Shown one piece after another: positions 1,868 through 24,305 of a stretch of DNA of 64,000 bases. The notes below the pieces were generated by a model, which saw only the letters and a program-made list of their open reading frames with translations, did no database searches and had not been told where the DNA came from. Each line of letters starts with the position of its first letter. Position 1 is the first letter of the stretch. The DNA is from the human T2T-CHM13v2.0 reference genome, Homo sapiens, in NCBI GenBank assembly GCA_009914755.4, contig CP068257.2, forward strand, positions 11,264,001 through 11,328,000. The letters are read 5' to 3'. The translations under genes and the position numbers were made by a program.

Positions 1868-1898
1868 ATGCTTCTGTCTATTTTTTATGGGAAGATAT

Positions 1899-2915: not shown

Positions 2916-2932
2916 TCCCGCTTCCAACGAAA
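2916..2932 (-). promoter_or_regulatory. CENP-B box (tcccgcttccaacgaaa), HOR monomer 7
   Basis: The essential core positions are intact. Confidence 0.7.
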
Positions 2933-3257: not shown

Positions 3258-3274
3258 TCCCGTTTCCAACGAAA
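3258..3274 (-). promoter_or_regulatory. CENP-B box (tcccgtttccaacgaaa), HOR monomer 9
   Basis: Exact reverse complement of the canonical box. Confidence 0.75.
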
Positions 3275-3595
3275 TCATTAGAGCTATACAAATATCCACT
3301 TACTGTTTCTACAAAAAGAGTGTTTCCAAACTGCTGCATCAAAAGAGAGGTTCCACTCTGTTAGCTGAGTACACACATCACAAACTTGTTTCTCAGAATC
3401 CTTCTGTCTCGTTTTTATGGGAAGATATTTACTTTTTCACCGTAGGCATCAAAGCGCTCCAAATGTCCACATCCAGATACTCCAGAAAGAGTGTTTCAAA
3501 CCTGCTCTATGAAAGGGAATCTTCAACTCTATGAGTTGAATGCAGACATCAGAAAGAAATTTCTGAGAATGCTGCTGTCTACCTTTTATTTGAAT

Positions 3596-3612
3596 TCCCG
3601 CTTCCAACGAAA
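3596..3612 (-). promoter_or_regulatory. CENP-B box (tcccgcttccaacgaaa), HOR monomer 11
   Basis: The essential core is intact. Box spacing within the HOR is 341/509/342/338/340 bp, i.e. every other monomer apart from one 3-monomer gap. Confidence 0.7.
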
Positions 3613-3737
3613 TCCTCCAAGCTATCCAAATATCCACTTGCAGATTCCACAAAAAGAGTGTTTCAAAACTGCTCTCTATCAATGGCAAAGTTCAACTCTG
3701 TTAGTTGAGGACACATATCACCAACAAGTTTCTGAGA

Positions 3738-5607
3738 ATGCTTCTGTCTATTTTTTATGGGAAGATATTTCCTTTTTCACCGTAGGCGTCAAGGCGATCG
3801 AAATGTCCACTTCCACAAACTACAAAAAGAGTGTTTCAAACCTGCTCTATGAAAGGCCATGTTCATCTCTATGAGTTGAATGGAAATATCCGAAAAAAAT
3901 TTCTGGGAATGCTGCTGTCTAGTTTTTATATGAATTCCCGCTTCCAACGAAATCCTCAAAGCAATCCAAATATCCACTTGCAGAATCCACAAAAAGAGTG
4001 TTTCAAAACTGCTCTATCAATAGAAAGGTTCAACTCTTTTAGTTGAGTACACACATCACGAACAAGTTTCTGAGAATGCTTCTGTCTGGCTTTTATTGGA
4101 AGACGTTTCCTTTTCACCAAAGGCATCAAAGCGCTCCAAATGTCCACTTCCAGATTCTTCCAAAAGAGTGTTTCAAACGTGCTCGAAGTAAGGGAATGTT
4201 CTACTCTGTGACTTGAATGCAGATATCACCAAGTAGTTTCTAATAGTGCTTCTGTCTAGATTTTAGATGATGATATTCCCGTTTCCAACGAAATCGTTAG
4301 AGCTATCCAAATATCCAGTTACAGTTTCTACCAAAAGGGTGTTTCCAAATTGCTGCATCAAAAGAAAGGTTCAACTCTGTTAGTTGAGGACACACATCAC
4401 AAAGAAGTTTGTGAGAATGCTTCTGTCTAGATTTTGTATGACGATATTCCCTTTTCCAACGATATCGTTAAAGCAATCTAAATATCAATTTGCAGAATCC
4501 ACAAAAATAGAGTTTCAAAGCTGCTCTGTAAAAAGAAAGGTTCCACTCTGTTAGCTGAGTACACACATCACAAACTTGTTTCTGAGAATCCTTCTGTCTC
4601 GTTTTTATGGGAAGATATTTACTTTTCCACCGTAGGCATCAAAGCGCTCCAAATGTCCACATCCAGATACTCCAGAACGAGTGTTTCAAACCTGCTCTAT
4701 GAAAGGGAATCTTCAACTCTATGAGTTGAATGCAGACATCAGAAAGAAATTTCTGAGAATGCTGCTGTCTACCTTTTATTTGAATTCCCGCTTCCAACGA
4801 AATCCTCCAAGCTATCCAAATATCCACTTGCATTTTCCACAAAAAGAGTGTTTCAAAACTGCTCTATCAATAGAAATGTTCAACTCCTTTGGCTGGGTAC
4901 ACACATCACAAACAAGTTTCTGAGAATGCTTCTGTCTAGTTTTTATGGGAAGACGTTCCCTTTTTCACCAAAGGCATCAAAGCGCTCCAAATGTCCACTT
5001 CCAGACACTACAAAAAGAGTGTTTCCAACGTGCTCTAAGAAAGCGAATGTTCAACTCTGTGACTTGAATGCAGATATCACAAAGTAGTTTCTGAGAGGGC
5101 TTCTGTCTAGATTTTAGATGATGATATTCCCGTTTCCAACGAAATCATTAGAGCTATCCAAATATCCACTTACAGTTTCTACAAAAAGAGTGTTTCCAAA
5201 CTGCTGCATCAAAAGAGAGGTTCCACTCTGTTAGCTGAGTACACACATCACAAACTTGTTTCTCAGAATCCTTCTGTCTCGTTTTTATGGGAAGATATTT
5301 ACTTTTTCACCGTAGGCATCAAAGCGCTCCAAATGTCCACATCCAGATACTCCAGAAAGAGTGTTTCAAACCTGCTCTATGAAAGGGAATCTTCAACTCT
5401 ATGAGTTGAATGCAGACATCAGAAAGAAATTTCTGAGAATGCTGCTGTCTACCTTTTATTTGAATTCCCGCTTCCAACGAAATCCTCCAAGCTATCCAAA
5501 TATCCACTTGCAGATTCCACAAAAAGAGTGTTTCAAAACTGCTCTCTATCAATGGCAAAGTTCAACTCTGTTAGTTGAGGACACATATCACCAACAAGTT
5601 TCTGAGA
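3738..5607 (-). repeat. HOR copy 3 (1,870 bp), near-identical to copy 2
   Basis: The ORF set is identical to copy 2 apart from single substitutions. Confidence 0.8.
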
Positions 5608-7477
5608 ATGCTTCTGTCTATTTTTTATGGGAAGATATTTCCTTTATCACCGTAGGCGTCAAGGCGATCGAAATGTCCACTTCCACAAACTACAAAAAGA
5701 GTGTTTCAAACCTGCTCTATGAAAGGCCATGTTCATCTCTATGAGTTGAATGGAAATATCCGAAAGAAATTTCTGGGAATGCTGCTGTCTAGTGTTTATA
5801 CGAATTCCCGCTTCCAACGAAATCCTCAAAGCAATCCAAATATCCACTTGCAGAATCCACAAAAAGAGTGTTTCAAAACCGCTCTATCAATAGAAAGGTT
5901 CAACTCTTTTAGTTGAGTACACACATCACGAACAAGTTTCTGAGAATGCTTCTGTCTGGCTTTTATTGGAAGACGTTTCCTTTTCACCAAAGGCATCAAA
6001 GCGCTCCAAATGTCCACTTCCAGATTCTTCCAAAAGAGTGTTTCAAACGTGCTCGAAGTAAGGGAATGTTCATCTCTGTGACTTGAATGCAGATATCACC
6101 AAGTAGTTTCTAATAGTGCTTCTGTCTAGATTTTAGATGATGATATTCCCGTTTCCAACGAAATCGTTAGATCTATCCAAATATCCAGTTACAGTTTCTA
6201 CCAAAAGGGTGTTTCCAAATTGCTGCATCAAAAGAAAGGTTCAACTCTGTTAGTTGAGGACACACATCACAAAGAAGTTTGTGAGAATGCTTCTGTCTAG
6301 ATTTTGTATGATGATATTCCCTTTTCCAACGATATCGTTAAAGCAATCTAAATATCAATTTGCAGAATCCACAAAAATAGAGTTTCAAAGCTGCTCTGTA
6401 AAAAGAAAGGTTCCACTCTGTTAGCTGAGTACACACATCACAAACTTGTTTCTGAGAATCCTTCTGTCTCGTTTTTATGGGAAGATATTTACTTTTCCAC
6501 CGTAGGCATCAAAGCGCTCCAAATGTCCACATCCAGATACTCCAGAACGAGTGTTTCAAACCTGCTCTATGAAAGGGAATCTTCAACTCTATGAGTTGAA
6601 TGCAGACATCAGAAAGAAATTTCTGAGAATGCTGCTGTCTACCTTTTATTTGAATTCCCGCTTCCAACGAAATCCTCCAAGCTATCCAAATATCCACTTG
6701 CATTTTCCACAAAAAGAGTGTTTCAAAACTGCTCTATCAATAGAAATGTTCAACTCCTTTGGCTGGGTACACACATCACAAACAAGTTTCTGAGAATGCT
6801 TCTGTCTAGTTTTTATGGGAAGACGTTCCCTTTTTCACCAAAGGCATCAAAGCGCTCCAAATGTCCACTTCCAGACACTACAAAAAGAGTGTTTCCAACG
6901 TGCTCTAAGAAAGCGAATGTTCAACTCTGTGACTTGAATGCAGATATCACAAAGTAGTTTCTGAGAGGGCTTCTGTCTAGATTTTAGATGATGATATTCC
7001 CGTTTCCAACGAAATCATTAGAGCTATCCAAATATCCACTTACAGTTTCTACAAAAAGAGTGTTTCCAAACTGCTGCATCAAAAGAGAGGTTCCACTCTG
7101 TTAGCTGAGTACACACATCACAAACTTGTTTCTCAGAATCCTTCTGTCTCGTTTTTATGGGAAGATATTTACTTTTTCACCGTAGGCATCAAAGCGCTCC
7201 AAATGTCCACATCCAGATACTCCAGAAAGAGTGTTTCAAACCTGCTCTATGAAAGGGAATCTTCAACTCTATGAGTTGAATGCAGACATCAGAAAGAAAT
7301 TTCTGAGAATGCTGCTGTCTACCTTTTATTTGAATTCCCGCTTCCAACGAAATCCTCCAAGCTATCCAAATATCCACTTGCAGATTCCACAAAAAGAGTG
7401 TTTCAAAACTGCTCTCTATCAATGGCAAAGTTCAACTCTGTTAGTTGAGGACACATATCACCAACAAGTTTCTGAGA
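5608..7477 (-). repeat. HOR copy 4 (1,870 bp); shares private variants with copy 8
   Basis: Private variants tttcaaaaccgctc (5871), gaatgttcatctctgtg (6061), cgttagatctatcc (6171), gtatgatgatattccc (6301) and FITVGV recur only in copy 8, at +7,480. Confidence 0.8.
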
Positions 7478-9347
7478 ATGCTTCTGTCTATTTTTTATGG
7501 GAAGATATTTCCTTTTTCACCGTAGGCGTCAAGGCGATCGAAATGTCCACTTCCACAAACTACAAAAAGAGTGTTTCAAACCTGCTCTATGAAAGGCCAT
7601 GTTCATCTCTATGAGTTGAATGGAAATATCCGAAAGAAATTTCTGGGAATGCTGCTGTCTAGTGTTTATACGAATTTCCGCTTCCAACGAAATCCTCAAA
7701 GCAATCCAAATATCCACTTGCAGAATCCACAAAAAGAGTGTTTCAAAACTGCTCTATCAATAGAAAGGTTCAACTCTTTTAGTTGAGTACACACATCACG
7801 AACAAGTTTCTGAGAATGCTTCTGTCTGGCTTTTATTGGAAGACGTTTCCTTTTCACCAAAGGCATCAAAGCGCTCCAAATGTCCACTTCCAGATTCTTC
7901 CAAAAGAGTGTTTCAAACGTGCTCAAAGTAAGGGAATGTTCAACTCTGTGACTTGAATGCAGATATCACCAAGTAGTTTCTAATAGTGCTTCTGTCTACA
8001 TTTTAGATGATGATATTCCCGTTTCAAACGAAATCGTTAGAGCTATCCAAATATCCAGTTACAGTTTCTACCAAAAGGGTGTTTCCAAATTGCTGCATCA
8101 AAAGAAAGGTTCAACTCTGTTAGTTGAGGACACACATCACAAAGAAGTTTGTGAGAATGCTTCTGTCTAGATTTTGTATGACGATATTCCCTTTTCCAAC
8201 GATATCGTTAAAGCAATCTAAATATCAATTTGCAGAATCCACAAAAATAGAGTTTCAAAGCTGCTCTGTAAAAAGAAAGGTTCCACTCTGTTAGCTGAGT
8301 ACACACATCACAAACTTGTTTCTCAGAATCCTTCTGTCTCGTTTTTATGGGAAGATATTTACTTTTCCACCGTAGGCATCAAAGCGCTCCAAATGTCCAC
8401 ATCCAGATACTCCAGAAAGAGTGTTTCAAACCTGCTCTATGAAAGGGAATGTTCAACTCTATGAGTTGAATGCAGACATCAGAAAGAAATTTCTGAGAAT
8501 GCTGCTGTCTACCTTTTATTTGAATTCCCGCTTCCAACGAAATCCTCCAAGCTATCCAAATATCCACTTGCATTTTCCACAAAAAGAGTGTTTCAAAACT
8601 GCTCTATCAATAGAAATGTTCAACTCCTTTAGCTGGGTACACACATCACAAACAAGTTTCTGAGAATGCTTCTGTCTAGTTTTTATGGGAAGACGTTCCC
8701 TTTTTCACCAAAGGCATCAAAGCGCTCCAAATGTCCACTTCAAGACACTACAAAAAGAGTGTTTCCAACGTGCTCTAAGAAAGCGAATGTTCAACTCTGT
8801 GACTTGAATGCAGATATCACAAAGTAGTTTCTGAGAGGGCTTCTGTCTAGATTTTAGATGATGATATTCCCGTTTCCAACGAAATCATTAGAGCTATCCA
8901 AATATCCACTTACAGTTTCTACAAAAAGAGTGTTTCCAAACTGCTGCATCAAAAGAGAGGTTCCACTCTGTTAGCTGAGTACACACATCACAAACTTGTT
9001 TCTCAGAATCCTTCTGTCTCGTTTTTATGGGAAGATATTTACTTTTTCACCGTAGGCATCAAAGCGCTCCAAATGTCCACATCCAGATACTCCAGAAAGA
9101 GTGTTTCAAACCTGCTCTATGAAAGGGAATCTTCAACTCTATGAGTTGAATGCAGACATCAGAAAGAAATTTCTGAGAATGCTGCTGTCTACCTTTTATT
9201 TGAATTCCCGCTTCCAACGAAATCCTCCAAGCTATCCAAATATCCACTTGCAGATTCCACAAAAAGAGTGTTTCAAAACTGCTCTCTATCAATGGCAAAG
9301 TTCAACTCTGTTAGTTGAGGACACATATCACCAACAAGTTTCTGAGA
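7478..9347 (-). repeat. HOR copy 5 (1,870 bp); same variant type as copies 9 and 11
   Basis: EAEIRINT, NFRFQ, GNVQLYEL, LIELNIPF, caagacacta and the 76-aa ORF form MSTFETLFWKNLEVDIW. Confidence 0.8.
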
Positions 9348-11217
9348 ATGCTTCTGTCTATTTTTTATGGGAAGATATTTCCTTTTTCACCGTAGGCGTC
9401 AAGGCGATCGAAATGTCCACTTCCACAAACTACAAAAAGAGTGTTTCAAACCTGCTCTATGAAAGGCCATGTTCATCTCTATGAGTTGAATGGAAATATC
9501 CGAAAGAAATTTCTGGGAATGCTGCTGTCTAGTGTTTATACGAATTCCCACTTCCAACGAAATCCTCAAAGCAATCCAAATATCCACTTGCAGAATCCAC
9601 AAAAAGAGTGTTTCAAAACTGCTCTATCAATAGAAAGGTTCAACTCTTTTAGTTGAGTACACACATCACGAACAAGTTTCTGAGAATGCTTCTGTCTGGC
9701 TTTTATTGGAAGACGTTTCCTTTTCACCAAAGGCATCAAAGCGCTCCAAATGTCCACTTCCAGATTCTTCCAAAAGAGTGTTTCAAACGTGCTCAAAGTA
9801 AGGGAATGTTCAACTCTGTGACTTGAATGCAGATATCACCAAGTAGTTTCTAATAGTGCTTCTGTCTAGATTTTAGATGATGATATTCCCGTTTCCAACG
9901 AAATCGTTAGAGCTATCCAAATATCCACTTACAGTTTCTACAAAAAGAGTGTTTCCAAACTGCTGCATCAAAAGAAAGGTTCAACTCTGTTAGTTGAGGA
10001 CACACATCACAAAGAAGTTTGTGAGAATGCTTCTGTCTAGATTTTGTATGACGATATTCCCTTTTCCAACGATATCGTTAAAGCAATCTAAATATCAATT
10101 TGCAGAATCCACAAAAATAGAGTTTCAAAGCTGCTCTGTAAAAAGAAAGGTTCCACTCTGTTAGCTGAGTACACACATCACAAACTTGTTTCTCAGAATC
10201 CTTCTGTCTCGTTTTTATGGGAAGATATTTACTTTTCCACCGTAGGCATCAAAGCGCTCCAAATGTCCACATCCAGATACTCCAGAACGAGTGTTTCAAA
10301 CCTGCTCTATGAAAGGGAATCTTCAACTCTATGAGTTGAATGCAGACATCAGAAAGAAATTTCTGAGAATGCTGCTGTCTACCTTTTATTTGAATTCCCG
10401 CTTCCAACGAAATCCTCCAAGCTATCCAAATATCCACTTGCATTTTCCACAAAAAGAGTGTTTCAAAACTGCTCTATCAATAGAAATGTTCAACTCCTTT
10501 GGCTGGGTACACACATCACAAACAAGTTTCTGAGAATGCTTCTGTCTAGTTTTTATGGGAAGACGTTCCCTTTTTCACCAAAGGCATCAAAGCGCTCCAA
10601 ATGTCCACTTCCAGACACTACAAAAAGAGTGTTTCCAACGTGCTCTAAGAAAGCGAATGTTCAACTCTGTGACTTGAATGCAGATATCACAAAGTAGTTT
10701 CTGAGAGGGCTTCTGTCTAGATTTTAGATGATGATATTCCCGTTTCCAACGAAATCATTAGAGCTATCCAAATATCCACTTACAGTTTCTACAAAAAGAG
10801 TGTTTCCAAACTGCTGCATCAAAAGAGAGGTTCCACTCTGTTAGCTGAGTACACACATCACAAACTTGTTTCTCAGAATCCTTCTGTCTCGTTTTTATGG
10901 GAAGATATTTACTTTTTCACCGTAGGCATCAAAGCGCTCCAAATGTCCACATCCAGATACTCCAGAAAGAGTGTTTCAAACCTGCTCTATGAAAGGGAAT
11001 CTTCAACTCTATGAGTTGAATGCAGACATCAGAAAGAAATTTCTGAGAATGCTGCTGTCTACCTTTTATTTGAATTCCCGCTTCCAACGAAATCCTCCAA
11101 GCTATCCAAATATCCACTTGCAGATTCCACAAAAAGAGTGTTTCAAAACTGCTCTCTATCAATGGCAAAGTTCAACTCTGTTAGTTGAGGACACATATCA
11201 CCAACAAGTTTCTGAGA
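9348..11217 (-). repeat. HOR copy 6 (1,870 bp); same variant type as copies 10 and 12
   Basis: EVGIRINT and NSHFQ variants are shared with 16879/16921 and 20617/20659. Confidence 0.8.
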
Positions 11218-13087
11218 ATGCTTCTGTCTATTTTTTATGGGAAGATATTTCCTTTTTCACCGTAGGCGTCAAGGCGATCGAAATGTCCACTTCCACAAAC
11301 TACAAAAAGAGTGTTTCAAACCTGCTCTATGAAAGGCCATGTTCATCTCTATGAGTTGAATGGAAATATCCGAAAAAAATTTCTGGGAATGCTGCTGTCT
11401 AGTTTTTATATGAATTCCCGCTTCCAACGAAATCCTCAAAGCAATCCAAATATCCACTTGCAGAATCCACAAAAAGAGTGTTTCAAAACTGCTCTATCAA
11501 TAGAAAGGTTCAACTCTTTTAGTTGAGTACACACATCACGAACAAGTTTCTGAGAATGCTTCTGTCTGGCTTTTATTGGAAGACGTTTCCTTTTCACCAA
11601 AGGCATCAAAGCGCTCCAAATGTCCACTTCCAGATTCTTCCAAAAGAGTGTTTCAAACGTGCTCGAAGTAAGGGAATGTTCTACTCTGTGACTTGAATGC
11701 AGATATCACCAAGTAGTTTCTAATAGTGCTTCTGTCTAGATTTTAGATGATGATATTCCCGTTTCCAACGAAATCGTTAGAGCTATCCAAATATCCAGTT
11801 ACAGTTTCTACCAAAAGGGTGTTTCCAAATTGCTGCATCAAAAGAAAGGTTCAACTCTGTTAGTTGAGGACACACATCACAAAGAAGTTTGTGAGAATGC
11901 TTCTGTCTAGATTTTGTATGACGATATTCCCTTTTCCAACGATATCGTTAAAGCAATCTAAATATCAATTTGCAGAATCCACAAAAATAGAGTTTCAAAG
12001 CTGCTCTGTAAAAAGAAAGGTTCCACTCTGTTAGCTGAGTACACACATCACAAACTTGTTTCTGAGAATCCTTCTGTCTCGTTTTTATGGGAAGATATTT
12101 ACTTTTCCACCGTAGGCATCAAAGCGCTCCAAATGTCCACATCCAGATACTCCAGAACGAGTGTTTCAAACCTGCTCTATGAAAGGGAATCTTCAACTCT
12201 ATGAGTTGAATGCAGACATCAGAAAGAAATTTCTGAGAATGCTGCTGTCTACCTTTTATTTGAATTCCCGCTTCCAACGAAATCCTCCAAGCTATCCAAA
12301 TATCCACTTGCATTTTCCACAAAAAGAGTGTTTCAAAACTGCTCTATCAATAGAAATGTTCAACTCCTTTGGCTGGGTACACACATCACAAACAAGTTTC
12401 TGAGAATGCTTCTGTCTAGTTTTTATGGGAAGACGTTCCCTTTTTCACCAAAGGCATCAAAGCGCTCCAAATGTCCACTTCCAGACACTACAAAAAGAGT
12501 GTTTCCAACGTGCTCTAAGAAAGCGAATGTTCAACTCTGTGACTTGAATGCAGATATCACAAAGTAGTTTCTGAGAGGGCTTCTGTCTAGATTTTAGATG
12601 ATGATATTCCCGTTTCCAACGAAATCATTAGAGCTATCCAAATATCCACTTACAGTTTCTACAAAAAGAGTGTTTCCAAACTGCTGCATCAAAAGAGAGG
12701 TTCCACTCTGTTAGCTGAGTACACACATCACAAACTTGTTTCTCAGAATCCTTCTGTCTCGTTTTTATGGGAAGATATTTACTTTTTCACCGTAGGCATC
12801 AAAGCGCTCCAAATGTCCACATCCAGATACTCCAGAAAGAGTGTTTCAAACCTGCTCTATGAAAGGGAATCTTCAACTCTATGAGTTGAATGCAGACATC
12901 AGAAAGAAATTTCTGAGAATGCTGCTGTCTACCTTTTATTTGAATTCCCGCTTCCAACGAAATCCTCCAAGCTATCCAAATATCCACTTGCAGATTCCAC
13001 AAAAAGAGTGTTTCAAAACTGCTCTCTATCAATGGCAAAGTTCAACTCTGTTAGTTGAGGACACATATCACCAACAAGTTTCTGAGA
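11218..13087 (-). repeat. HOR copy 7 (1,870 bp); copy-2/3 type
   Basis: EAGIHIKTRQQHSQKFFSD and SSFYMNSRFQ are identical to copies 2 and 3. Confidence 0.8.
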
Positions 13088-14957
13088 ATGCTTCTGTCTA
13101 TTTTTTATGGGAAGATATTTCCTTTATCACCGTAGGCGTCAAGGCGATCGAAATGTCCACTTCCACAAACTACAAAAAGAGTGTTTCAAACCTGCTCTAT
13201 GAAAGGCCATGTTCATCTCTATGAGTTGAATGGAAATATCCGAAAGAAATTTCTGGGAATGCTGCTGTCTAGTGTTTATATGAATTCCCGCTTCCAACGA
13301 AATCCTCAAAGCAATCCAAATATCCACTTGCAGAATCCACAAAAAGAGTGTTTCAAAACCGCTCTATCAATAGAAAGGTTCAACTCTTTTAGTTGAGTAC
13401 ACACATCACGAACAAGTTTCTGAGAATGCTTCTGTCTGGCTTTTATTGGAAGACGTTTCCTTTTCACCAAAGGCATCAAAGCGCTCCAAATGTCCACTTC
13501 CAGATTCTTCCAAAAGAGTGTTTCAAACGTGCTCGAAGTAAGGGAATGTTCATCTCTGTGACTTGAATGCAGATATCACCAAGTAGTTTCTAATAGTGCT
13601 TCTGTCTAGATTTTAGATGATGATATTCCCGTTTCCAACGAAATCGTTAGATCTATCCAAATATCCAGTTACAGTTTCTACCAAAAGGGTGTTTCCAAAT
13701 TGCTGCATCAAAAGAAAGGTTCAACTCTGTTAGTTGAGGACACACATCACAAAGAAGTTTGTGAGAATGCTTCTGTCTAGATTTTGTATGATGATATTCC
13801 CTTTTCCAACGATATCGTTAAAGCAATCTAAATATCAATTTGCAGAATCCACAAAAATAGAGTTTCAAAGCTGCTCTGTAAAAAGAAAGGTTCCACTCTG
13901 TTAGCTGAGTACACACATCACAAACTTGTTTCTGAGAATCCTTCTGTCTCGTTTTTATGGGAAGATATTTACTTTTCCACCGTAGGCATCAAAGCGCTCC
14001 AAATGTCCACATCCAGATACTCCAGAAAGAGTGTTTCAAACCTGCTCTATGAAAGGGAATCTTCAACTCTATGAGTTGAATGCAGACATCAGAAAGAAAT
14101 TTCTGAGAATGCTGCTGTCTACCTTTTATTTGAATTCCCGCTTCCAACGAAATCCTCCAAGCTATCCAAATATCCACTTGCATTTTCCACAAAAAGAGTG
14201 TTTCAAAACTGCTCTATCAATAGAAATGTTCAACTCCTTTGGCTGGGTACACACATCACAAACAAGTTTCTGAGAATGCTTCTGTCTAGTTTTTATGGGA
14301 AGACGTTCCCTTTTTCACCAAAGGCATCAAAGCGCTCCAAATGTCCACTTCCAGACACTACAAAAAGAGTGTTTCCAACGTGCTCTAAGAAAGCGAATGT
14401 TCAACTCTGTGACTTGAATGCAGATATCACAAAGTAGTTTCTGAGAGGGCTTCTGTCTAGATTTTAGATGATGATATTCCCGTTTCCAACGAAATCATTA
14501 GAGCTATCCAAATATCCACTTACAGTTTCTACAAAAAGAGTGTTTCCAAACTGCTGCATCAAAAGAGAGGTTCCACTCTGTTAGCTGAGTACACACATCA
14601 CAAACTTGTTTCTCAGAATCCTTCTGTCTCGTTTTTATGGGAAGATATTTACTTTTTCACCGTAGGCATCAAAGCGCTCCAAATGTCCACATCCAGATAC
14701 TCCAGAAAGAGTGTTTCAAACCTGCTCTATGAAAGGGAATCTTCAACTCTATGAGTTGAATGCAGACATCAGAAAGAAATTTCTGAGAATGCTGCTGTCT
14801 ACCTTTTATTTGAATTCCCGCTTCCAACGAAATCCTCCAAGCTATCCAAATATCCACTTGCAGATTCCACAAAAAGAGTGTTTCAAAACTGCTCTCTATC
14901 AATGGCAAAGTTCAACTCTGTTAGTTGAGGACACATATCACCAACAAGTTTCTGAGA
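13088..14957 (-). repeat. HOR copy 8 (1,870 bp); near-duplicate of copy 4
   Basis: Carries the same private variants as copy 4 (13361 aaaaccgctc, 13551 catctctgtg, 13651 cgttagatctatcc, 13791 gtatgatgat). Confidence 0.8.
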
Positions 14958-16827
14958 ATGCTTCTGTCTATTTTTTATGGGAAGATATTTCCTTTTTCAC
15001 CGTAGGCGTCAAGGCGATCGAAATGTCCACTTCCACAAACTACAAAAAGAGTGTTTCAAACCTGCTCTATGAAAGGCCATGTTCATCTCTATGAGTTGAA
15101 TGGAAATATCCGAAAGAAATTTCTGGGAATGCTGCTGTCTAGTGTTTATACGAATTTCCGCTTCCAACGAAATCCTCAAAGCAATCCAAATATCCACTTG
15201 CAGAATCCACAAAAAGAGTGTTTCAAAACTGCTCTATCAATAGAAAGGTTCAACTCTTTTAGTTGAGTACACACATCACGAACAAGTTTCTGAGAATGCT
15301 TCTGTCTGGCTTTTATTGGAAGACGTTTCCTTTTCACCAAAGGCATCAAAGCGCTCCAAATGTCCACTTCCAGATTCTTCCAAAAGAGTGTTTCAAACGT
15401 GCTCAAAGTAAGGGAATGTTCAACTCTGTGACTTGAATGCAGATATCACCAAGTAGTTTCTAATAGTGCTTCTGTCTACATTTTAGATGATGATATTCCC
15501 GTTTCAAACGAAATCGTTAGAGCTATCCAAATATCCAGTTACAGTTTCTACCAAAAGGGTGTTTCCAAATTGCTGCATCAAAAGAAAGGTTCAACTCTGT
15601 TAGTTGAGGACACACATCACAAAGAAGTTTGTGAGAATGCTTCTGTCTAGATTTTGTATGACGATATTCCCTTTTCCAACGATATCGTTAAAGCAATCTA
15701 AATATCAATTTGCAGAATCCACAAAAATAGAGTTTCAAAGCTGCTCTGTAAAAAGAAAGGTTCCACTCTGTTAGCTGAGTACACACATCACAAACTTGTT
15801 TCTCAGAATCCTTCTGTCTCGTTTTTATGGGAAGATATTTACTTTTCCACCGTAGGCATCAAAGCGCTCCAAATGTCCACATCCAGATACTCCAGAAAGA
15901 GTGTTTCAAACCTGCTCTATGAAAGGGAATGTTCAACTCTATGAGTTGAATGCAGACATCAGAAAGAAATTTCTGAGAATGCTGCTGTCTACCTTTTATT
16001 TGAATTCCCGCTTCCAACGAAATCCTCCAAGCTATCCAAATATCCACTTGCATTTTCCACAAAAAGAGTGTTTCAAAACTGCTCTATCAATAGAAATGTT
16101 CAACTCCTTTGGCTGGGTACACACATCACAAACAAGTTTCTGAGAATGCTTCTGTCTAGTTTTTATGGGAAGACGTTCCCTTTTTCACCAAAGGCATCAA
16201 AGCGCTCCAAATGTCCACTTCAAGACACTACAAAAAGAGTGTTTCCAACGTGCTCTAAGAAAGCGAATGTTCAACTCTGTGACTTGAATGCAGATATCAC
16301 AAAGTAGTTTCTGAGAGGGCTTCTGTCTAGATTTTAGATGATGATATTCCCGTTTCCAACGAAATCATTAGAGCTATCCAAATATCCACTTACAGTTTCT
16401 ACAAAAAGAGTGTTTCCAAACTGCTGCATCAAAAGAGAGGTTCCACTCTGTTAGCTGAGTACACACATCACAAACTTGTTTCTCAGAATCCTTCTGTCTC
16501 GTTTTTATGGGAAGATATTTACTTTTTCACCGTAGGCATCAAAGCGCTCCAAATGTCCACATCCAGATACTCCAGAAAGAGTGTTTCAAACCTGCTCTAT
16601 GAAAGGGAATCTTCAACTCTATGAGTTGAATGCAGACATCAGAAAGAAATTTCTGAGAATGCTGCTGTCTACCTTTTATTTGAATTCCCGCTTCCAACGA
16701 AATCCTCCAAGCTATCCAAATATCCACTTGCAGATTCCACAAAAAGAGTGTTTCAAAACTGCTCTCTATCAATGGCAAAGTTCAACTCTGTTAGTTGAGG
16801 ACACATATCACCAACAAGTTTCTGAGA
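14958..16827 (-). repeat. HOR copy 9 (1,870 bp); near-duplicate of copy 5
   Basis: ORFs at 15009, 15051 and 15859 are identical to those at 7529, 7571 and 8379. Confidence 0.8.
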
Positions 16828-18695
16828 ATGCTTCTGTCTATTTTTTATGGGAAGATATTTCCTTTTTCACCGTAGGCGTCAAGGCGATCGAAATGTCCAC
16901 TTCCACAAACTACAAAAAGAGTGTTTCAAACCTGCTCTATGAAAGGCCATGTTCATCTCTATGAGTTGAATGGAAATATCCGAAAGAAATTTCTGGGAAT
17001 GCTGCTGTCTAGTGTTTATACGAATTCCCACTTCCAACGAAATCCTCAAAGCAATCCAAATATCCACTTGCAGAATCCACAAAAAGAGTGTTTCAAAACT
17101 GCTCTATCAATAGAAAGGTTCAACTCTTTTAGTTGAGTACACACATCACGAACAAGTTTCTGAGAATGCTTCTGTCTGGCTTTTATTGGAAGACGTTTCC
17201 TTTTCACCAAAGGCATCAAAGCGCTCCAAATGTCCACTTCCAGATTCTTCCAAAAGAGTGTTTCAAACGTGCTCAAAGTAAGGGAATGTTCAACTCTGTG
17301 ACTTGAATGCAGATATCACCAAGTAGTTTCTAATAGTGCTTCTGTCTAGATTTTAGATGATGATATTCCCGTTTCCAACGAAATCGTTAGAGCTATCCAA
17401 ATATCCACTTACAGTTTCTACAAAAAGAGTGTTTCCAAACTGCTGCATCAAAAGAAAGGTTCAACTCTGTTAGTTGAGGACACACATCACAAAGAAGTTT
17501 GTGAGAATGCTTCTGTCTAGATTTTGTATGACGATATTCCCTTTTCCAACGATATCGTTAAAGCAATCTAAATATCAATTTGCAGAATCCACAAAAATAG
17601 TTTCAAAGCTGCTCTGTAAAAAGAAAGGTTCCACTCTGTTAGCTGAGTACACACATCACAAACTTGTTTCTCAGAATCCTTCTGTCTCGTTTTTATGGGA
17701 AGATATTTACTTTTCCACCGTAGGCATCAAAGCGCTCCAAATGTCCACATCCAGATACTCCAGAACGAGTGTTTCAAACCTGCTCTATGAAAGGGAATCT
17801 TCAACTCTATGAGTTGAATGCAGACATCAGAAAGAAATTTCTGAGAATGCTGCTGTCTACCTTTTATTTGAATTCCCGCTTCCAACGAAATCCTCCAAGC
17901 TATCCAAATATCCACTTGCATTTTCCACAAAAAGAGTGTTTCAAAACTGCTCTATCAATAGAAATGTTCAACTCCTTTGGCTGGGTACACACATCACAAA
18001 CAAGTTTCTGAGAATGCTTCTGTCTAGTTTTTATGGGAAGACGTTCCCTTTTTCACCAAAGGCATCAAAGCGCTCCAAATGTCCACTTCCAGACACTACA
18101 AAAAGAGTGTTTCCAACGTGCTCTAAGAAAGCGAATGTTCAACTCTGTGACTTGAATGCAGATATCACAAAGTAGTTTCTGAGAGGGCTTCTGTCTAGAT
18201 TTTAGATGATGATATTCCCGTTTCCAACGAAATCATTAGAGCTATCCAAATATCCACTTACAGTTTCTACAAAAAGAGTGTTTCCAAACTGCTGCATCAA
18301 AAGAGAGGTTCCACTCTGTTAGCTGAGTACACACATCACAAACTTGTTTCTCAGAATCCTTCTGTCTCGTTTTTATGGGAAGATATTTACTTTTTCACCG
18401 TAGGCATCAAAGCGCTCCAAATGTCCACATCCAGATACTCCAGAAAGAGTGTTTCAAACCTGCTCTATGAAAGGGAATCTTCAACTCTATGAGTTGAATG
18501 CAGACATCAGAAAGAAATTTCTGAGAATGCTGCTGTCTACCTTTTATTTGAATTCCCGCTTCCAACGAAATCCTCCAAGCTATCCAAATATCCACTTGCA
18601 GATTCCACAAAAAGAGTGTTTCAAAACTGCTCTCTATCAATGGCAAAGTTCAACTCTGTTAGTTGAGGACACATATCACCAACAAGTTTCTGAGA
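16828..18695 (-). repeat. HOR copy 10 (1,868 bp; 2-bp deletion near 17,600); copy-6 type
   Basis: acaaaaatagtttcaaagct vs canonical acaaaaatagagtttcaaagct; EVGIRINT / NSHFQ. Confidence 0.8.
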
Positions 18696-20565
18696 ATGCT
18701 TCTGTCTATTTTTTATGGGAAGATATTTCCTTTTTCACCGTAGGCGTCAAGGCGATCGAAATGTCCACTTCCACAAACTACAAAAAGAGTGTTTCAAACC
18801 TGCTCTATGAAAGGCCATGTTCATCTCTATGAGTTGAATGGAAATATCCGAAAGAAATTTCTGGGAATGCTGCTGTCTAGTGTTTATACGAATTTCCGCT
18901 TCCAACGAAATCCTCAAAGCAATCCAAATATCCACTTGCAGAATCCACAAAAAGAGTGTTTCAAAACTGCTCTATCAATAGAAAGGTTCAACTCTTTTAG
19001 TTGAGTACACACATCACGAACAAGTTTCTGAGAATGCTTCTGTCTGGCTTTTATTGGAAGACGTTTCCTTTTCACCAAAGGCATCAAAGCGCTCCAAATG
19101 TCCACTTCCAGATTCTTCCAAAAGAGTGTTTCAAACGTGCTCAAAGTAAGGGAATGTTCAACTCTGTGACTTGAATGCAGATATCACCAAGTAGTTTCTA
19201 ATAGTGCTTCTGTCTACATTTTAGATGATGATATTCCCGTTTCAAACGAAATCGTTAGAGCTATCCAAATATCCAGTTACAGTTTCTACCAAAAGGGTGT
19301 TTCCAAATTGCTGCATCAAAAGAAAGGTTCAACTCTGTTAGTTGAGGACACACATCACAAAGAAGTTTGTGAGAATGCTTCTGTCTAGATTTTGTATGAC
19401 GATATTCCCTTTTCCAACGATATCGTTAAAGCAATCTAAATATCAATTTGCAGAATCCACAAAAATAGAGTTTCAAAGCTGCTCTGTAAAAAGAAAGGTT
19501 CCACTCTGTTAGCTGAGTACACACATCACAAACTTGTTTCTCAGAATCCTTCTGTCTCGTTTTTATGGGAAGATATTTACTTTTCCACCGTAGGCATCAA
19601 AGCGCTCCAAATGTCCACATCCAGATACTCCAGAAAGAGTGTTTCAAACCTGCTCTATGAAAGGGAATCTTCAACTCTATGAGTTGAATGCAGACATCAG
19701 AAAGAAATTTCTGAGAATGCTGCTGTCTACCTTTTATTTGAATTCCCGCTTCCAACGAAATCCTCCAAGCTATCCAAATATCCACTTGCATTTTCCACAA
19801 AAAGAGTGTTTCAAAACTGCTCTATCAATAGAAATGTTCAACCCCTTTGGCTGGGTACACACATCACAAACAAGTTTCTGAGAATGCTTCTGTCTAGTTT
19901 TTATGGGAAGACGTTCCCTTTTTCACCAAAGGCATCAAAGCGCTCCAAATGTCCACTTCAAGACACTACAAAAAGAGTGTTTCCAACGTGCTCTAAGAAA
20001 GCGAATGTTCAACTCTGTGACTTGAATGCAGATATCACAAAGTAGTTTCTGAGAGGGCTTCTGTCTAGATTTTAGATGATGATATTCCCGTTTCCAACGA
20101 AATCATTAGAGCTATCCAAATATCCACTTACAGTTTCTACAAAAAGAGTGTTTCCAAACTGCTGCATCAAAAGAGAGGTTCCACTCTGTTAGCTGAGTAC
20201 ACACATCACAAACTTGTTTCTCAGAATCCTTCTGTCTCGTTTTTATGGGAAGATATTTACTTTTTCACCGTAGGCATCAAAGCGCTCCAAATGTCCACAT
20301 CCAGATACTCCAGAAAGAGTGTTTCAAACCTGCTCTATGAAAGGGAATCTTCAACTCTATGAGTTGAATGCAGACATCAGAAAGAAATTTCTGAGAATGC
20401 TGCTGTCTACCTTTTATTTGAATTCCCGCTTCCAACGAAATCCTCCAAGCTATCCAAATATCCACTTGCAGATTCCACAAAAAGAGTGTTTCAAAACTGC
20501 TCTCTATCAATGGCAAAGTTCAACTCTGTTAGTTGAGGACACATATCACCAACAAGTTTCTGAGA
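18696..20565 (-). repeat. HOR copy 11 (1,870 bp); copy-5/9 type in its 5' part
   Basis: 18747 and 18789 are identical to 15009 and 15051; the downstream part carries canonical LIELK. Confidence 0.8.
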
Positions 20566-22435
20566 ATGCTTCTGTCTATTTTTTATGGGAAGATATTTCC
20601 TTTTTCACCGTAGGCGTCAAGGCGATCGAAATGTCCACTTCCACAAACTACAAAAAGAGTGTTTCAAACCTGCTCTATGAAAGGCCATGTTCATCTCTAT
20701 GAGTTGAATGGAAATATCCGAAAGAAATTTCTGGGAATGCTGCTGTCTAGTGTTTATACGAATTCCCACTTCCAACGAAATCCTCAAAGCAATCCAAATA
20801 TCCACTTGCAGAATCCACAAAAAGAGTGTTTCAAAACTGCTCTATCAATAGAAAGGTTCAACTCTTTTAGTTGAGTACACACATCACGAACAAGTTTCTG
20901 AGAATGCTTCTGTCTGGCTTTTATTGGAAGACGTTTCCTTTTCACCAAAGGCATCAAAGCGCTCCAAATGTCCACTTCCAGATTCTTCCAAAAGAGTGTT
21001 TCAAACGTGCTCAAAGTAAGGGAATGTTCAACTCTGTGACTTGAATGCAGATATCACCAAGTAGTTTCTAATAGTGCTTCTGTCTAGATTTTAGATGATG
21101 ATATTCCCGTTTCCAACGAAATCGTTAGAGCTATCCAAATATCCACTTACAGTTTCTACAAAAAGAGTGTTTCCAAACTGCTGCATCAAAAGAAAGGTTC
21201 AACTCTGTTAGTTGAGGACACACATCACAAAGAAGTTTGTGAGAATGCTTCTGTCTAGATTTTGTATGACGATATTCCCTTTTCCAACGATATCGTTAAA
21301 GCAATCTAAATATCAATTTGCAGAATCCACAAAAATAGAGTTTCAAAGCTGCTCTGTAAAAAGAAAGGTTCCACTCTGTTAGCTGAGTACACACATCACA
21401 AACTTGTTTCTGAGAATCCTTCTGTCTCGTTTTTATGGGAAGATATTTACTTTTCCACCGTAGGCATCAAAGCGCTCCAAATGTCCACATCCAGATACTC
21501 CAGAACGAGTGTTTCAAACCTGCTCTATGAAAGGGAATCTTCAACTCTATGAGTTGAATGCAGACATCAGAAAGAAATTTCTGAGAATGCTGCTGTCTAC
21601 CTTTTATTTGAATTCCCGCTTCCAACGAAATCCTCCAAGCTATCCAAATATCCACTTGCATTTTCCACAAAAAGAGTGTTTCAAAACTGCTCTATCAATA
21701 GAAATGTTCAACTCCTTTGGCTGGGTACACACATCACAAACAAGTTTCTGAGAATGCTTCTGTCTAGTTTTTATGGGAAGACGTTCGCTTTTTCACCAAA
21801 GGCATCAAAGCGCTCCAAATGTCCACTTCCAGACACTACAAAAAGAGTGTTTCCAACGTGCTCTAAGAAAGCGAATGTTCAACTCTGTGACTTGAATGCA
21901 GATATCACAAAGTAGTTTCTGAGAGGGCTTCTGTCTAGATTTTAGATGATGATATTCCCGTTTCCAACGAAATCATTAGAGCTATCCAAATATCCACTTA
22001 CAGTTTCTACAAAAAGAGTGTTTCCAAACTGCTGCATCAAAAGAGAGGTTCCACTCTGTTAGCTGAGTACACACATCACAAACTTGTTTCTCAGAATCCT
22101 TCTGTCTCGTTTTTATGGGAAGATATTTACTTTTTCACCGTAGGCATCAAAGCGCTCCAAATGTCCACATCCAGATACTCCAGAAAGAGTGTTTCAAACC
22201 TGCTCTATGAAAGGGAATCTTCAACTCTATGAGTTGAATGCAGACATCAGAAAGAAATTTCTGAGAATGCTGCTGTCTACCTTTTATTTGAATTCCCGCT
22301 TCCAACGAAATCCTCCAAGCTATCCAAATATCCACTTGCAGATTCCACAAAAAGAGTGTTTCAAAACTGCTCTCTATCAATGGCAAAGTTCAACTCTGTT
22401 ACTTGAGGACACATATCACCAACAGGTTTCTGAGA
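20566..22435 (-). repeat. HOR copy 12 (1,870 bp); copy-6/10 type
   Basis: 20617 and 20659 are identical to 16879 and 16921. Confidence 0.8.
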
Positions 22436-24305
22436 ATGCTTCTGTCTATTTTTTATGGGAAGATATTTCCTTTTTCACCGTAGGCGTCAAGGCGATCGAA
22501 ATGTCCACTTCCACAAACTACAAAAAGAGTGTTTCAAACCTGCTCTATGAAAGGCCATGTTCATCTCTATGAGTTGAATGGAAATATCCGAAAGAAATTT
22601 CTGGGAATGCTGCTGTCTAGTTTTTATACGAATTCCCGCTTCCAACGAAATCCTCAAAGCAATCCAAATATCCACTTGCAGAATCCACAAAAAGAGTGTT
22701 TCAAAACTGCTCTATCAATAGAAAGGTTCAACTCTTTTAGTTGAGTACACACATCACGAACAAGTTTCTCAGAATGCTTCCGTCTGGCTTTTATTGGAAG
22801 ACGTTTCCTTTTCACCAAAGGCATCAAAGCGCTCCAAATGTCCACTTCCAGATTCTTCCAAAAGAGTGTTTCAAACGTGCTCAAAGTAAGGGAATGTTCA
22901 ACTCTGTGACTTGAATGCAGATATCACCAAGTAGTTTCTAATAGTGTTTCTGTCTAGATTTTAGATGATGATATTCCCGTTTCCAACGAAATCGTTAGAG
23001 CTATCCAAATATCCACTTACAGTTTCTACAAAAAGGGTGTTTCCAAACTGCTGCATCAAAAGAAAGGTTCAACTCTGTTAGTTGAGGACACACATCACAA
23101 AGAAGTTTGTGAGAATGCTTCTGTCTAGATTTTGTATGACGATATTCCCTTTTCCAACGATATCGTTAAAGCAATCTAAATATCAATTTGCAGAATCCAC
23201 AAAAATAGAGTTTCAAAGCTGCTCTGTAAAAAGAAAGGTTCCACTCTGTTAGCTGAGTACACACATCACAAACTTGTTTCTGAGAATCCTTCTGTCTTGT
23301 TTTTATGGGAAGATATTTACTTTTTCACCGTAGGCATCAAAGGGCTCCAAATGTCCACATCCAGATACTCCAGAAAGAGTGTTTCAAACCTGCTCTATGA
23401 AAGGGAATCTTCAACTCTATGAGTTGAATGCAGACATCAGAAAGAAATTTCTGAGAATGCTGCTGTCTACCTTTTATGTGAATTCCCGCTTCCAATGAAA
23501 TCCTCCAAGCTATCCAAATATCCACCTGCATTTTCCACAAAAAGAGTGTTTCAAAACTGCTCTATCAATAGAAATGTTCAACTCCTTTGGCTGGGTACAC
23601 ACATCACAAACAAGTTTCTGAGAATGCTTCTGTCTAGTTTTTATGGGAAGACATTCCCTTTTTCACCAAAGGCATCAAAGCGCTCCAAATGTCCACTTCC
23701 AGACACTACAAAAAGAGTGTTTCCAACGTGCTCTAAGAAAGCGAATGATCAACTCTGTGACTTGAATGCAGATATCACAAAGTAGTTTCTGAGAGGGCTT
23801 CTGTCTAGATTTTAGACGATGATATTCCCGTTTCCAACGAAATCATTAGAGCTATCCAAATATCCACTTACAGTTTCTACAAAAAGAGTGTTTCCAAACT
23901 GCTGCATCAGAAGAGAGGTTCCACTCTGTTAGCTGAGTACACACATCACAAACTTGTTTCTCAGAATCCTTCTGTCTCGTTTTTATGGGAAGATATTTAC
24001 TTTTTCACCGTAGGCATCAAAGCGCTGCAAATGTCCACATCCAGATACTCCAGAAAGAGTGTTTCAAACCTGCTCTATGAAAGGGAATCTTCAACTCTAT
24101 GAGTTGAATGCAGACATCAGAAAGAAATTTCTGAGAATGCTGCTGTCTACCTTTTATTTGAATTCCCGCTTCCAACGAAATCCTCCAAGCTATCCAAATA
24201 TCCACTTGCTGATTCCACAGAAAGAGTGTTTCAAAACTGCTCTCTATCAATGGCAAAGTTCAACTCTGTTAGTTGAGGACACATATCACCAACAAGTTTC
24301 TGAGA
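22436..24305 (-). repeat. HOR copy 13 (1,870 bp)
   Basis: Register markers 22487, 22529, 22654, 23337 and 24017; SSFYTN / EAGIRIKT variant. Confidence 0.8.

What the first reader, a model, noticed from the sequence alone, without database searches (positions are those of the whole stretch)
5608..22435. Nested super-HOR structure: blocks of 2 and 4 HOR units have been re-duplicated
Private variants show that copies 4-5-6 are near-duplicates of copies 8-9-10 (offset 7,480 bp). Copy 4 and copy 8 share aaaaccgctc, catctctgtg, cgttagatctatcc and gtatgatgat. Copy pairs (5,6), (9,10) and (11,12) share EAEIRINT/NFRFQ then EVGIRINT/NSHFQ at a 3,740-bp offset. Copies 2, 3 and 7 form another class. This is the footprint of very recent multi-unit unequal crossover or amplification. 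It also gives phase-able markers for long-read assembly and validation.
Basis: seen in the sequence. Interest (0 to 1): 0.6.

Follow-up and report, generated by a model that had tools for sequence, protein, structure and literature searches.

The report
Recent multi-unit duplications in centromere repeats
Within the chromosome-21-type centromeric alpha-satellite array, a 7.5-kb block of four 1.87-kb repeat units and, earlier, a 3.7-kb block of two units were copied in tandem; the pattern is real, but it is the ordinary, already documented way such arrays grow.

Summary
[quoted passage not shown] Pairwise differences are c3=c7 (0), c4~c8 (2), c5~c9 (1), c6~c10 (one 2-bp deletion), and c11/c12 differ from c5,c9/c6,c10 by 2–6. 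Unrelated copies differ by 9–16. The layout is therefore c1 c2 [A B C D][A B C D][C' D'] c13 c14. None of 20,000 column shuffles comes near this.

The 4-unit block is c3–c6 -> c7–c10, not only c4–6 -> c8–10. The near-identical tract runs 3305–11375 vs 10785–18853. Difference counts and one shared derived site suggest the 2-unit CD duplication came before the 4-unit one.

The HOR is alpha21-I (D21Z1/D13Z1). The published Cen21 primers and the T2T-CHM13 chr21 consensus monomers match. The spacing of rearranged copies fits published chr21 coordinates, placing window base 1 near chr21:11,264,162, at the q-side edge of the array.

The best explanation is in-register tandem duplication, by unequal sister-chromatid exchange or replication-coupled repair. 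Multi-HOR and nested recent duplications are already described, including for this array. "Super-HOR" overstates two and a half copies. Interest is low.

The parts
1..26180 (.). Fourteen tandem copies (c1-c14) of the 1,870-bp 11-monomer alpha-satellite HOR (alpha21-I / D21Z1-type). They read as the reverse complement of the standard alpha-satellite consensus. The array continues left of the window.
   Evidence: identity to published chr21 consensus monomers; primers
1871..3740 (.). c2, an older relative of class A. It has 7 differences from c3/c7 and shares the rare 159A. This is an earlier one-unit duplication layer, with a mosaic of c1-like sites.
3741..11220 (.). Block 1 of the 4-unit (7,480-bp) duplication: c3 (class A), c4 (B), c5 (C), c6 (D).
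11221..18698 (.). Block 2 of the 4-unit duplication: c7 (A), c8 (B), c9 (C), c10 (D). It differs from block 1 by 3 substitutions (partner positions 5801, 6548, 8631) and one 2-bp deletion.
3305..3895 (.). Interval that must contain the left boundary of the 7,480-bp duplication. The equivalent junction intervals are 10785-11375 and 18263-18853. The near-identical tract is 8,071 bp long, so the junction is placed to within 591 bp.
   Evidence: last c2/c6 mismatch at 3304, first c7/c11 mismatch at 11376
18699..22438 (.). c11 (C') and c12 (D'), the product of the 2-unit (3,740-bp) duplication. They differ from c5c6 by 7 substitutions, and from c9c10 by 6 substitutions plus the deletion. The similarity tract is 14029-18881 vs 17767-22621.
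17600..17601 (.). Site of a private 2-bp (AG) deletion in c10, in an AGAG context. It shifts the downstream offsets to 7,478 and 3,738 bp.
22439..26180 (.). c13 and c14 flank the duplicated blocks and belong to none of the classes. c14's last two monomers are replaced.
26181..40943 (.). Rearranged HOR copies, two canonical copies (34487-38226) and the decaying end of the array. This is context, not part of the duplications.
   Evidence: the spacing matches published chr21 coordinates

Best explanation
The region is the q-arm-side edge of the chromosome-21-type alpha21-I (D21Z1, S2C13/21H1L) 11-monomer alpha-satellite array, very probably T2T-CHM13 chr21 at about 11.264-11.328 Mb.

Four neighbouring HOR copies (A, B, C, D) had diverged by about 0.5-0.75%, each carrying a few rare private variants. 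Two in-register tandem duplications then copied whole runs of units. First the pair C-D was duplicated (3,740 bp), giving A B C D C' D'. Later the run A-B-C-D was duplicated (7,480 bp), giving A B C D A B C D C' D'. An older one-unit duplication (c2 and class A) lies to the left.

The likely mechanism is out-of-register pairing by 2 or 4 HOR units between sister chromatids (or homologues), followed by unequal exchange. An equivalent replication-coupled event, such as break-induced replication or template re-invasion after fork collapse, would give the same result. Afterwards the copies picked up a few changes: one slippage deletion, one CpG transition, and changes to alleles already circulating in the array, which suggests short-tract conversion.

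What is shown: the block identity, its boundaries, its significance and the array's identity. What is inferred: the order of events (moderate support) and the molecular mechanism. No function is implied. This is the normal turnover process of satellite arrays.
For: Runs of consecutive copies are near-identical at fixed offsets. c3-c6 vs c7-c10 differ by 0, 2, 1 and 2 columns. c9c10 vs c11c12 differ by 2 and 6. Other pairs differ by 9-16.

A continuous diagonal of 8,071 bp carries 3 substitutions and 1 indel.

None of 20,000 shuffles approaches the observed value.

NJ bootstrap with random tie-breaking gives c3+c7 99%, c4+c8 98%, c5+c9+c11 100%, c6+c10+c12 92%, c5+c9 74% and c6+c10 75%.

The class-defining alleles are rare. 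159A, 273C, 466T, 565T, 705T, 200T, 549A, 1265A and 203A occur in 0 of 69 independent public human-derived contigs of the same HOR. Their sharing is therefore identity by descent, not re-sampling of common polymorphisms.

Array identity rests on three results. The Cen21 primers match exactly. All 10 published T2T-CHM13 chr21 monomer types match with 0-2 substitutions. The spacings 3,234, 10,684 and 2,545 bp between rearranged copies and the array end equal the published coordinates.

The literature already reports duplications of 2-4 HOR copies in this array (PMC12385485). It also reports recent nested duplications in T2T-CHM13 arrays (bioRxiv 10.1101/2021.07.12.452052). Length variation is greatest at chr21, at 3.6-fold between CHM1 and CHM13 (PMC11062924).
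Against: One haplotype cannot separate a length-changing duplication from a long gene-conversion tract that overwrote four pre-existing units.

The order of the two events rests on small counts. With 7 vs 2 events in the shared 3.74 kb, a one-sided binomial gives P of about 0.09. There is a single synapomorphy (col 974).

Three of the 4 inter-block differences are at sites polymorphic elsewhere, so divergence is not clock-like.

The chr21 assignment (as opposed to chr13, which shares this HOR) rests on matching coordinate spacings from one paper, not on alignment to the assembly.

Assembly correctness could not be checked.
Confidence: 0.85

Rival explanations
1. Long-tract gene conversion. Four pre-existing HOR copies were overwritten, without any change in array length, by a 7.5-8 kb non-reciprocal copy of the neighbouring four. 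The same would apply to two copies for the C'D' pair.
For: It produces the same co-linear identity pattern. Short-tract conversion does seem to operate here. c8 differs from c4 at col 941 by carrying the array's majority allele, and c5's 1154A is seen in 6 unrelated contigs. Mosaic sharing of variants between classes (cols 187, 522, 581-613, 941) also points to conversion.
Against: The tract is exactly one duplication length plus the uninformative margin, and it sits directly adjacent to its source, as a tandem duplication predicts. Conversion tracts of 7.5 kb or more are unusual (general knowledge, not tested). chr21 arrays are known to vary strongly in length, which shows that length-changing events are frequent there.
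Confidence: 0.1
2. Assembly artefact. The ABCD block was falsely duplicated, or reads from different parts of the array were mis-joined, when this satellite array was assembled.
For: Satellite arrays are the hardest regions to assemble. c3 and c7 are 100% identical.
Against: The two blocks are not identical: they differ by 3 substitutions and a 2-bp deletion. The flanks (c2, c11-c13) carry distinguishing variants every few hundred bp, so reads of 15-20 kb would anchor the structure. The window matches, to the base, the spacing of features in a published, validated T2T assembly. Read-level evidence was not available here.
Confidence: 0.04
3. Chance or convergent sharing of common polymorphisms. 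The classes would simply reflect a handful of common HOR haplotypes that recur throughout the array, with no local duplication.
For: Several of the variable sites are indeed common polymorphisms of this HOR in other people (cols 187, 323, 581-613, 847, 890, 941, 1218).
Against: Each class also carries private alleles found in 0 of 69 public contigs. The order A-B-C-D is repeated exactly, over 8 kb, with only 4 differences. Shuffles never come close.
Confidence: 0.01

Closest known systems
Multi-copy HOR duplications in the T2T-CHM13 chr21 'cascading 11mer' array (Gluncic et al. 2025, PMC12385485)
   Same: It is the same HOR. There are 11 monomers of 10 types; here M6 and M10 are 99% identical, and all 10 consensus monomers match with 0-2 substitutions. 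It is very probably the same array. [quoted passage not shown]
   Different: The paper infers this from a structurally variant 9-mer copy recurring as CCCV in the central part of the array. The blocks here lie about 15-35 kb from the q-side end, consist only of canonical copies (shown as uniform 'canonical' in that paper), and are visible only through single-nucleotide variants.
'Zones of recent HOR duplication' and 'recent nested duplication' in T2T-CHM13 active arrays (Altemose et al., bioRxiv 10.1101/2021.07.12.452052)
   Same: Runs of consecutive HORs are nearly identical to neighbouring runs. The events are nested. Both are interpreted as local tandem duplication within an active array.
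   Different: Those examples (chr12, chrX) are highlighted near the kinetochore/CDR and often involve larger blocks. This one is small (2 and 4 units) and near the array edge. Its relation to CENP-A could not be examined.
superHORs as defined by CentromereArchitect (PMC8336445)
   Same: There is a level of repetition above the HOR.
   Different: That definition works on strings of structurally different HORs in a monomer alphabet. Here all units are the same canonical 11-mer, so the decomposition would be a^n with no superHOR. There are also only about 2.5 repeats.
Classical short-range homogenisation / unequal crossing-over model of satellite evolution (Smith 1976; Durfy & Willard 1989; Warburton & Willard 1990; cited from memory, not re-read here)
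   Same: Neighbouring HOR copies are more alike than distant ones. Multi-unit periodicities arise from out-of-register exchange.
   Different: Nothing of substance. This is a base-resolved instance of that model.

Membership tests
Alpha satellite DNA | Tandem monomers of about 171 bp that are similar to the alpha-satellite consensus | tested here: met
   TRF gives period 171/342 over 1-64000. A consensus-derived nhmmer search gives 377 contiguous monomer hits on one strand.
Alpha satellite DNA | CENP-B boxes (nTTCGnnnnAnnCGGGn) in a subset of monomers | tested here: met
   There are 111 matches against 0.03 expected. A canonical HOR copy has 5 boxes, in M2, M4, M7, M9 and M11.
alpha21-I / D21Z1-D13Z1 11-mer HOR (S2C13/21H1L) | HOR of 11 monomers (about 1.87 kb) of dimeric type | tested here: met
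   The period is 1,870 bp. The monomer string 1-11 is repeated, with alternating monomer types and one extra.
alpha21-I / D21Z1-D13Z1 11-mer HOR (S2C13/21H1L) | Sequence identity to the published HOR consensus | tested here: met
   Each of the 10 T2T-CHM13 chr21 consensus monomer types matches one window monomer with 0-2 substitutions. The remaining gap columns are compatible with machine-reading errors in the PDF.
alpha21-I / D21Z1-D13Z1 11-mer HOR (S2C13/21H1L) | Amplified by the standard Cen21 primer pair (Nakano 2003, as used in PMC4694756 and PMC7679138) | tested here: met
   The forward primer matches exactly twice per HOR. The reverse primer matches with 0-1 mismatch once per HOR. The two are in convergent orientation about 195 bp apart.
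alpha21-I / D21Z1-D13Z1 11-mer HOR (S2C13/21H1L) | Location on chromosome 21 rather than chromosome 13, which shares the HOR | tested here: inconclusive
   Spacings of 3,234, 10,684 and 2,545 bp between rearranged copies and array ends equal the published chr21 coordinates 11,288,641 / 11,291,875 / 11,302,559 / 11,305,104. This is strong but indirect, because no human assembly was available to align against.
superHOR (CentromereArchitect sense) | A recurrent string made of two or more structurally different HORs | tested here: not met
   c1-c13 are all canonical 11-mers in the monomer alphabet. The classes differ only by point variants.
Periodic super-repeat (array of 4-HOR units) | The period continues over three or more units | tested here: not met
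   There are only two full ABCD copies plus CD. c1/c2 and c13/c14 do not fit the period.
Tandem multi-HOR duplication (recent duplication event) | A run of consecutive HORs is near-identical to the adjacent run, in register and head-to-tail, with a tract length equal to the offset within marker resolution | tested here: met
   The 8,071-bp tract lies at offset 7,480, with a junction uncertainty of 591 bp. The 4,853-bp tract lies at offset 3,740.
Tandem multi-HOR duplication (recent duplication event) | Insertion/deletion polymorphism of exactly the block length among related haplotypes | not testable with these tools
   No human haplotype assemblies are available. The public metagenome contigs are collapsed short-read consensus of 1-9 kb.

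The most novel reading that the evidence does not exclude
The most novel reading not excluded concerns CENP-B boxes. The two block duplications preferentially propagated HOR copies that have lost the box in monomer M2: classes C and D, through two independent box-destroying mutations, now make up 6 of 14 copies. Together with the complete lack of variation in the last ~610 bp of units c3-c11, this could mean that turnover at the array edge is not neutral. It could instead be biased, by relaxed or reversed selection on CENP-B box density or by a recombination hotspot within the HOR.
Probability: 0.05. Interest if true: 0.45.

Novelty: already known. Interest (0 to 1): 0.12.

Why it matters
This is a clean, base-resolved example of how satellite arrays turn over: in-register duplication of 1, 2 and 4 HOR units, followed by a few point or conversion changes.

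Its practical value is modest. The class-specific rare variants are usable markers for checking assemblies of this array. They could also be used to ask, in pangenome data, whether the 7.48-kb and 3.74-kb blocks are insertion/deletion polymorphisms. That comparison would separate duplication from conversion and give a rate.

It does not change what is understood about centromeres. Both the phenomenon and this array are already published.

Tried and rejected
1. Whole-window self-BLAST returned only the trivial self-hit, because contained HSPs are culled. I replaced it with a 150-mer diagonal analysis.
2. The Biopython NJ bootstrap timed out. I replaced it with my own NJ implementation.
3. A first bootstrap run gave inflated support of 100% for c5+c9 and c6+c10, because ties were broken by index order. 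I repeated it with random tie-breaking and the 2-bp deletion counted once, and I report only those values.
4. Aligning the published consensus concatenated in my assumed order gave 84% identity. The paper lists monomers in + strand order but prints them in the opposite orientation. Per-monomer alignment resolved this.
5. I first read the four linked M4 variants of class D as a fresh M9-to-M4 conversion. Public contigs show the D state is the majority state of this HOR, so the direction is undetermined.
6. I looked for an older 2-unit relation (A,B)~(C,D). Distances of 11-14 in all combinations give no support.
7. I considered clock dating. With 4 events per 7,480 bp and 7 per 3,740 bp, and assuming 0.5e-9 per bp per year (my assumption) up to the 4.1-fold elevation reported for centromere flanks, the ages would be about 0.13-0.5 Myr and 0.5-1.9 Myr. 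I rejected these as unreliable, because most differences are at recurrently variable sites.
8. The phage, plasmid, E. coli, protein and RNA tools are irrelevant to satellite DNA and were not used.
Full report
**What is there.**
The whole 64-kb window is alpha satellite. TRF finds periods of 171 and 342 bp over 1-64000. A search with the standard consensus gives 377 contiguous monomers, all on one strand and read as its reverse complement. Ungapped self-comparison peaks at 1,870 bp and its multiples in the first 27 kb.

Monomer-by-monomer labelling shows an 11-monomer higher-order repeat (HOR), M1-M11. It is repeated 13 times canonically, and a 14th copy has its last two monomers replaced, over 1-26180. 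Rearranged copies follow (25.8-34.5 kb), then two canonical copies (34487-38226). The array decays by about 41 kb. Diverged dimers run to about 48 kb and monomeric alpha satellite follows. The array is cut by the left end of the window, so '14 copies' is only what the window shows.

**Check of the observation.**
The four nucleotide strings mark c4 and c8 at identical offsets; one of them also occurs three times in the unrelated monomeric flank. The translated strings mark c5/c9/c11 and c6/c10/c12.

A MAFFT alignment of the copies gives these differences:

| Pair | Differences |
|---|---|
| c3-c7 | 0 |
| c4-c8 | 2 |
| c5-c9 | 1 |
| c6-c10 | 2 columns (one 2-bp deletion) |
| c9-c11 | 2 |
| c5-c11 | 3 |
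| c6-c12 | 4 |
| c10-c12 | 6 |
| c2-c3/c7 | 7 |
| copies of different classes | 9-16 |

The variant table shows 62 variable columns among c1-c13, of which 26 are shared by two or more copies, and these are strictly co-linear within classes. A 150-mer dot-plot recovers the diagonals at 7,480 bp, 3,740/3,738 bp and 11,218 bp.

I also shuffled letters within each variable column among the 13 copies 20,000 times. The summed distance of c3-c6 to c7-c10 averaged 62 (minimum 43) against 5 observed. The best four-in-a-row sum over any start and offset never fell below 32.

The four-unit block is c3-c6 -> c7-c10, because c3 and c7 are identical, so it begins left of the stated start.

**Anatomy of the duplications.**
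On the 7,480-bp diagonal, the last c2/c6 mismatch is at 3304 and the next flank mismatch (c7/c11) is at 11376. Between them there are only three substitutions (5801, 6548, 8631) and one 2-bp AG deletion in an AGAG context at about 17,600 in c10. The near-identical tract is 8,071 bp long, which places the junctions of a 7,480-bp tandem duplication within 3305-3895, 10785-11375 and 18263-18853.

For the two-unit event, the tract 14029-18881 vs 17767-22621 carries six substitutions plus the same deletion. c5c6 vs c11c12 (6455-11375 vs 17673-22593) carries seven substitutions.

The layout is c1 c2(A') [A B C D][A B C D][C' D'] c13 c14. The period does not extend into c1/c2 or c13/c14.

**Order of events.**
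c11c12 is about equally far from c5c6 and c9c10, at about 7 events per 3.74 kb. c5c6 and c9c10 differ by 2 events. c5 and c9 share the derived 974G, which c11 lacks. NJ bootstrapping with random tie-breaking supports the classes strongly:

| Grouping | Bootstrap support |
|---|---|
| c3+c7 | 99% |
| c4+c8 | 98% |
| c5+c9+c11 | 100% |
| c6+c10+c12 | 92% |
| c5+c9 | 74% |
| c6+c10 | 75% |

The favoured history is a C-D duplication first, followed by an A-B-C-D duplication. c2, at 7 differences from class A and sharing the rare 159A, marks an older one-unit layer. This order is inferred, and the counts are small.

**Identity of the array.**
I recalled a primer pair from memory as a lead, and it was then confirmed with the tools. 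The 'Cen21' qPCR primers GTCTACCTTTTATTTGAATTCCCG and AGGGAATGTCTTCCCATAAAAACT are used for chromosome 21 alpha satellite in PMC4694756 and PMC7679138. They match the HOR exactly, or with one mismatch, in convergent orientation.

Gluncic et al. 2025 (PMC12385485) describe the T2T-CHM13 chr21 array as a 'cascading 11mer' of 11 monomers in 10 types, spanning 10,963,339-11,302,559. Here M6 and M10 are 99% identical. Each of their 10 consensus monomers matches one of ours with 0-2 substitutions.

Their listed positions of the last two rearranged copies are 11,288,641 and 11,291,875. The array end is 11,302,559, and the end of their alignment figure is 11,305,104. These are spaced 3,234, 10,684 and 2,545 bp apart. 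Those are exactly the spacings of window positions 24480, 27714 and 38398 (all M2 starts) and 40943 (a monomer end).

This places window base 1 at about chr21:11,264,162 and the finding at about chr21:11.268-11.287 Mb, on the q-arm edge of D21Z1. Chromosome 13 shares this HOR, so the assignment, although strong, remains indirect.

**Evidence from other people.**
One scan of public metagenome contigs, with a degenerate 42-mer spanning four variable sites of M2, found 69 human-derived contigs of this HOR. They are collapsed short-read consensus, so they show common alleles only. Several 'minor' alleles of the window are in fact the common state elsewhere: 187T, 323A, 581C/595A/601A/613C, 847C, 890T, 941A and 1218A.

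Each class also carries alleles seen in none of the 69 contigs:
- class A: 159A
- class B: 273C, 466T, 565T, 705T
- class C: 200T, 549A, 1265A
- class D: 203A

Sharing of such rare alleles in the same order over 8 kb is identity by descent, not re-sampling of common haplotypes.

Three of the four differences between the two 7.48-kb blocks lie at sites that vary elsewhere. These are 194, a CpG transition; 941, where c8 carries the majority allele; and 1154, seen in six contigs. Post-duplication change therefore looks like recurrent mutation or short conversion, and a molecular-clock age is unreliable.

**Mechanism.**
The tandem, head-to-tail, in-register arrangement, with a tract length equal to the offset within marker resolution, is what unequal exchange between sister chromatids misaligned by 2 or 4 HOR units would give. 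A replication-coupled equivalent would give the same. A 7.5-kb conversion tract would look identical in a single haplotype, and I give it about 10%.

An assembly artefact is unlikely, at about 4%. The blocks differ at four places, the flanks are well marked, and the structure matches a validated T2T assembly. Even so, reads were not available to check it. Chance sharing is excluded.

**Comparison with what is known.**
Local multi-HOR duplication is textbook satellite behaviour. Altemose et al. report 'zones of recent HOR expansions' and 'recent nested duplication' in T2T-CHM13 arrays, and note that the chr21 array is 340 kb. Logsdon et al. report the largest CHM1/CHM13 length difference at chr21, 3.6-fold, and discuss unequal crossover and saltatory amplification. 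Gluncic et al. explicitly state that duplications of four, three or two HOR copies occurred in this very array, although they infer it from a structural variant in the central part.

The blocks here consist of canonical copies and are visible only at the nucleotide level. That is a new detail, not a new kind of thing. Under the CentromereArchitect definition this is not a superHOR, and with about 2.5 repeats it is not a periodic super-array.

**Verdict.**
The finding is real, highly significant and correctly interpreted in essence. It is also an ordinary and already documented feature of a published reference centromere. Interest is 0.12 and the novelty rating is 'already known'.

Noticed in passing
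window 7677-7691, 15157-15171, 18895-18909 (c5, c9, c11) and 9547-9561, 17027-17041, 20765-20779 (c6, c10, c12): The CENP-B box of monomer M2 is destroyed in class C (CCCG->TCCG) and, by a different CpG change, in class D (CCCG->CCCA). Six of the 14 copies therefore have 4 boxes instead of 5, and the block duplications multiplied these box-poor units. Neither allele occurs in 69 public contigs.
   Followed up: partly
alignment columns 1266-1877 of each HOR copy (about the last 610 bp, M8 end to M11) in c3-c11, e.g. window 5003-5610: All 23 sites that segregate among classes A-D lie in the first two thirds of the unit (P of about 1e-4 if uniform). The last third is identical in c3-c11, although 28 columns vary there in c1, c2, c12, c13 and the two distal canonical copies. 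That segment therefore has a younger common ancestor, pointing to intra-HOR exchange or conversion breakpoints.
   Followed up: partly
monomer M4, copy offsets about +578 to +610, e.g. window 9928-9960 (c6) vs 4318-4350 (c3): Four linked variants within 33 bp exist in two states. The class D/c13 state is identical to the homologous stretch of monomer M9 and is the majority state in public contigs; classes A-C carry the other state. c13 and c14 are partial. This looks like an inter-monomer conversion patch, with the direction undetermined.
   Followed up: partly
window 25839-34486: This stretch holds rearranged HOR copies with deletions and re-insertions of monomers (e.g. 8-4-5-10-11, 4-5-3-4-5). 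It includes a 13-monomer, 2,195-bp unit present twice (30092-32286 and 32287-34481), with a 1,674-bp stretch differing at 9 positions.
   Followed up: partly
window 38227-48000 and 48000-64000: The HOR array ends here. The last copy is truncated or rearranged (1-2-3-9-10-7-8-9-10-11). Monomers then decay to 85-95% identity by about 41 kb. Diverged dimers alternating between two monomer types run to about 48 kb. Monomeric alpha satellite at 75-85% to any HOR monomer follows, with sparse CENP-B-like boxes.
   Followed up: no
window 43665-43822, 47238-47386, 48058-48215: Three shortened monomers (158, 149 and 158 bp) lie in the diverged flank. The 149-bp one underlies the separate TRF row of period 149 at 47136-47422.
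   Followed up: no
window 1-1870 (c1): c1 carries a 1-bp and a 2-bp deletion (alignment cols 528 and 584-585) and 12 or more private substitutions. It shares 445G, 1218A and 1289A with c2, which suggests c2 is a mosaic of c1-like and class-A-like sequence.
   Followed up: no
loci L001-L069 (public metagenome contigs): Human alpha21-I satellite is present as contamination in at least 69 public 'metagenome' contigs, including marine and soil projects as well as human gut. Some are up to 8.7 kb long with only one canonical M2 match, so they may contain array-edge or variant structures.
   Followed up: no
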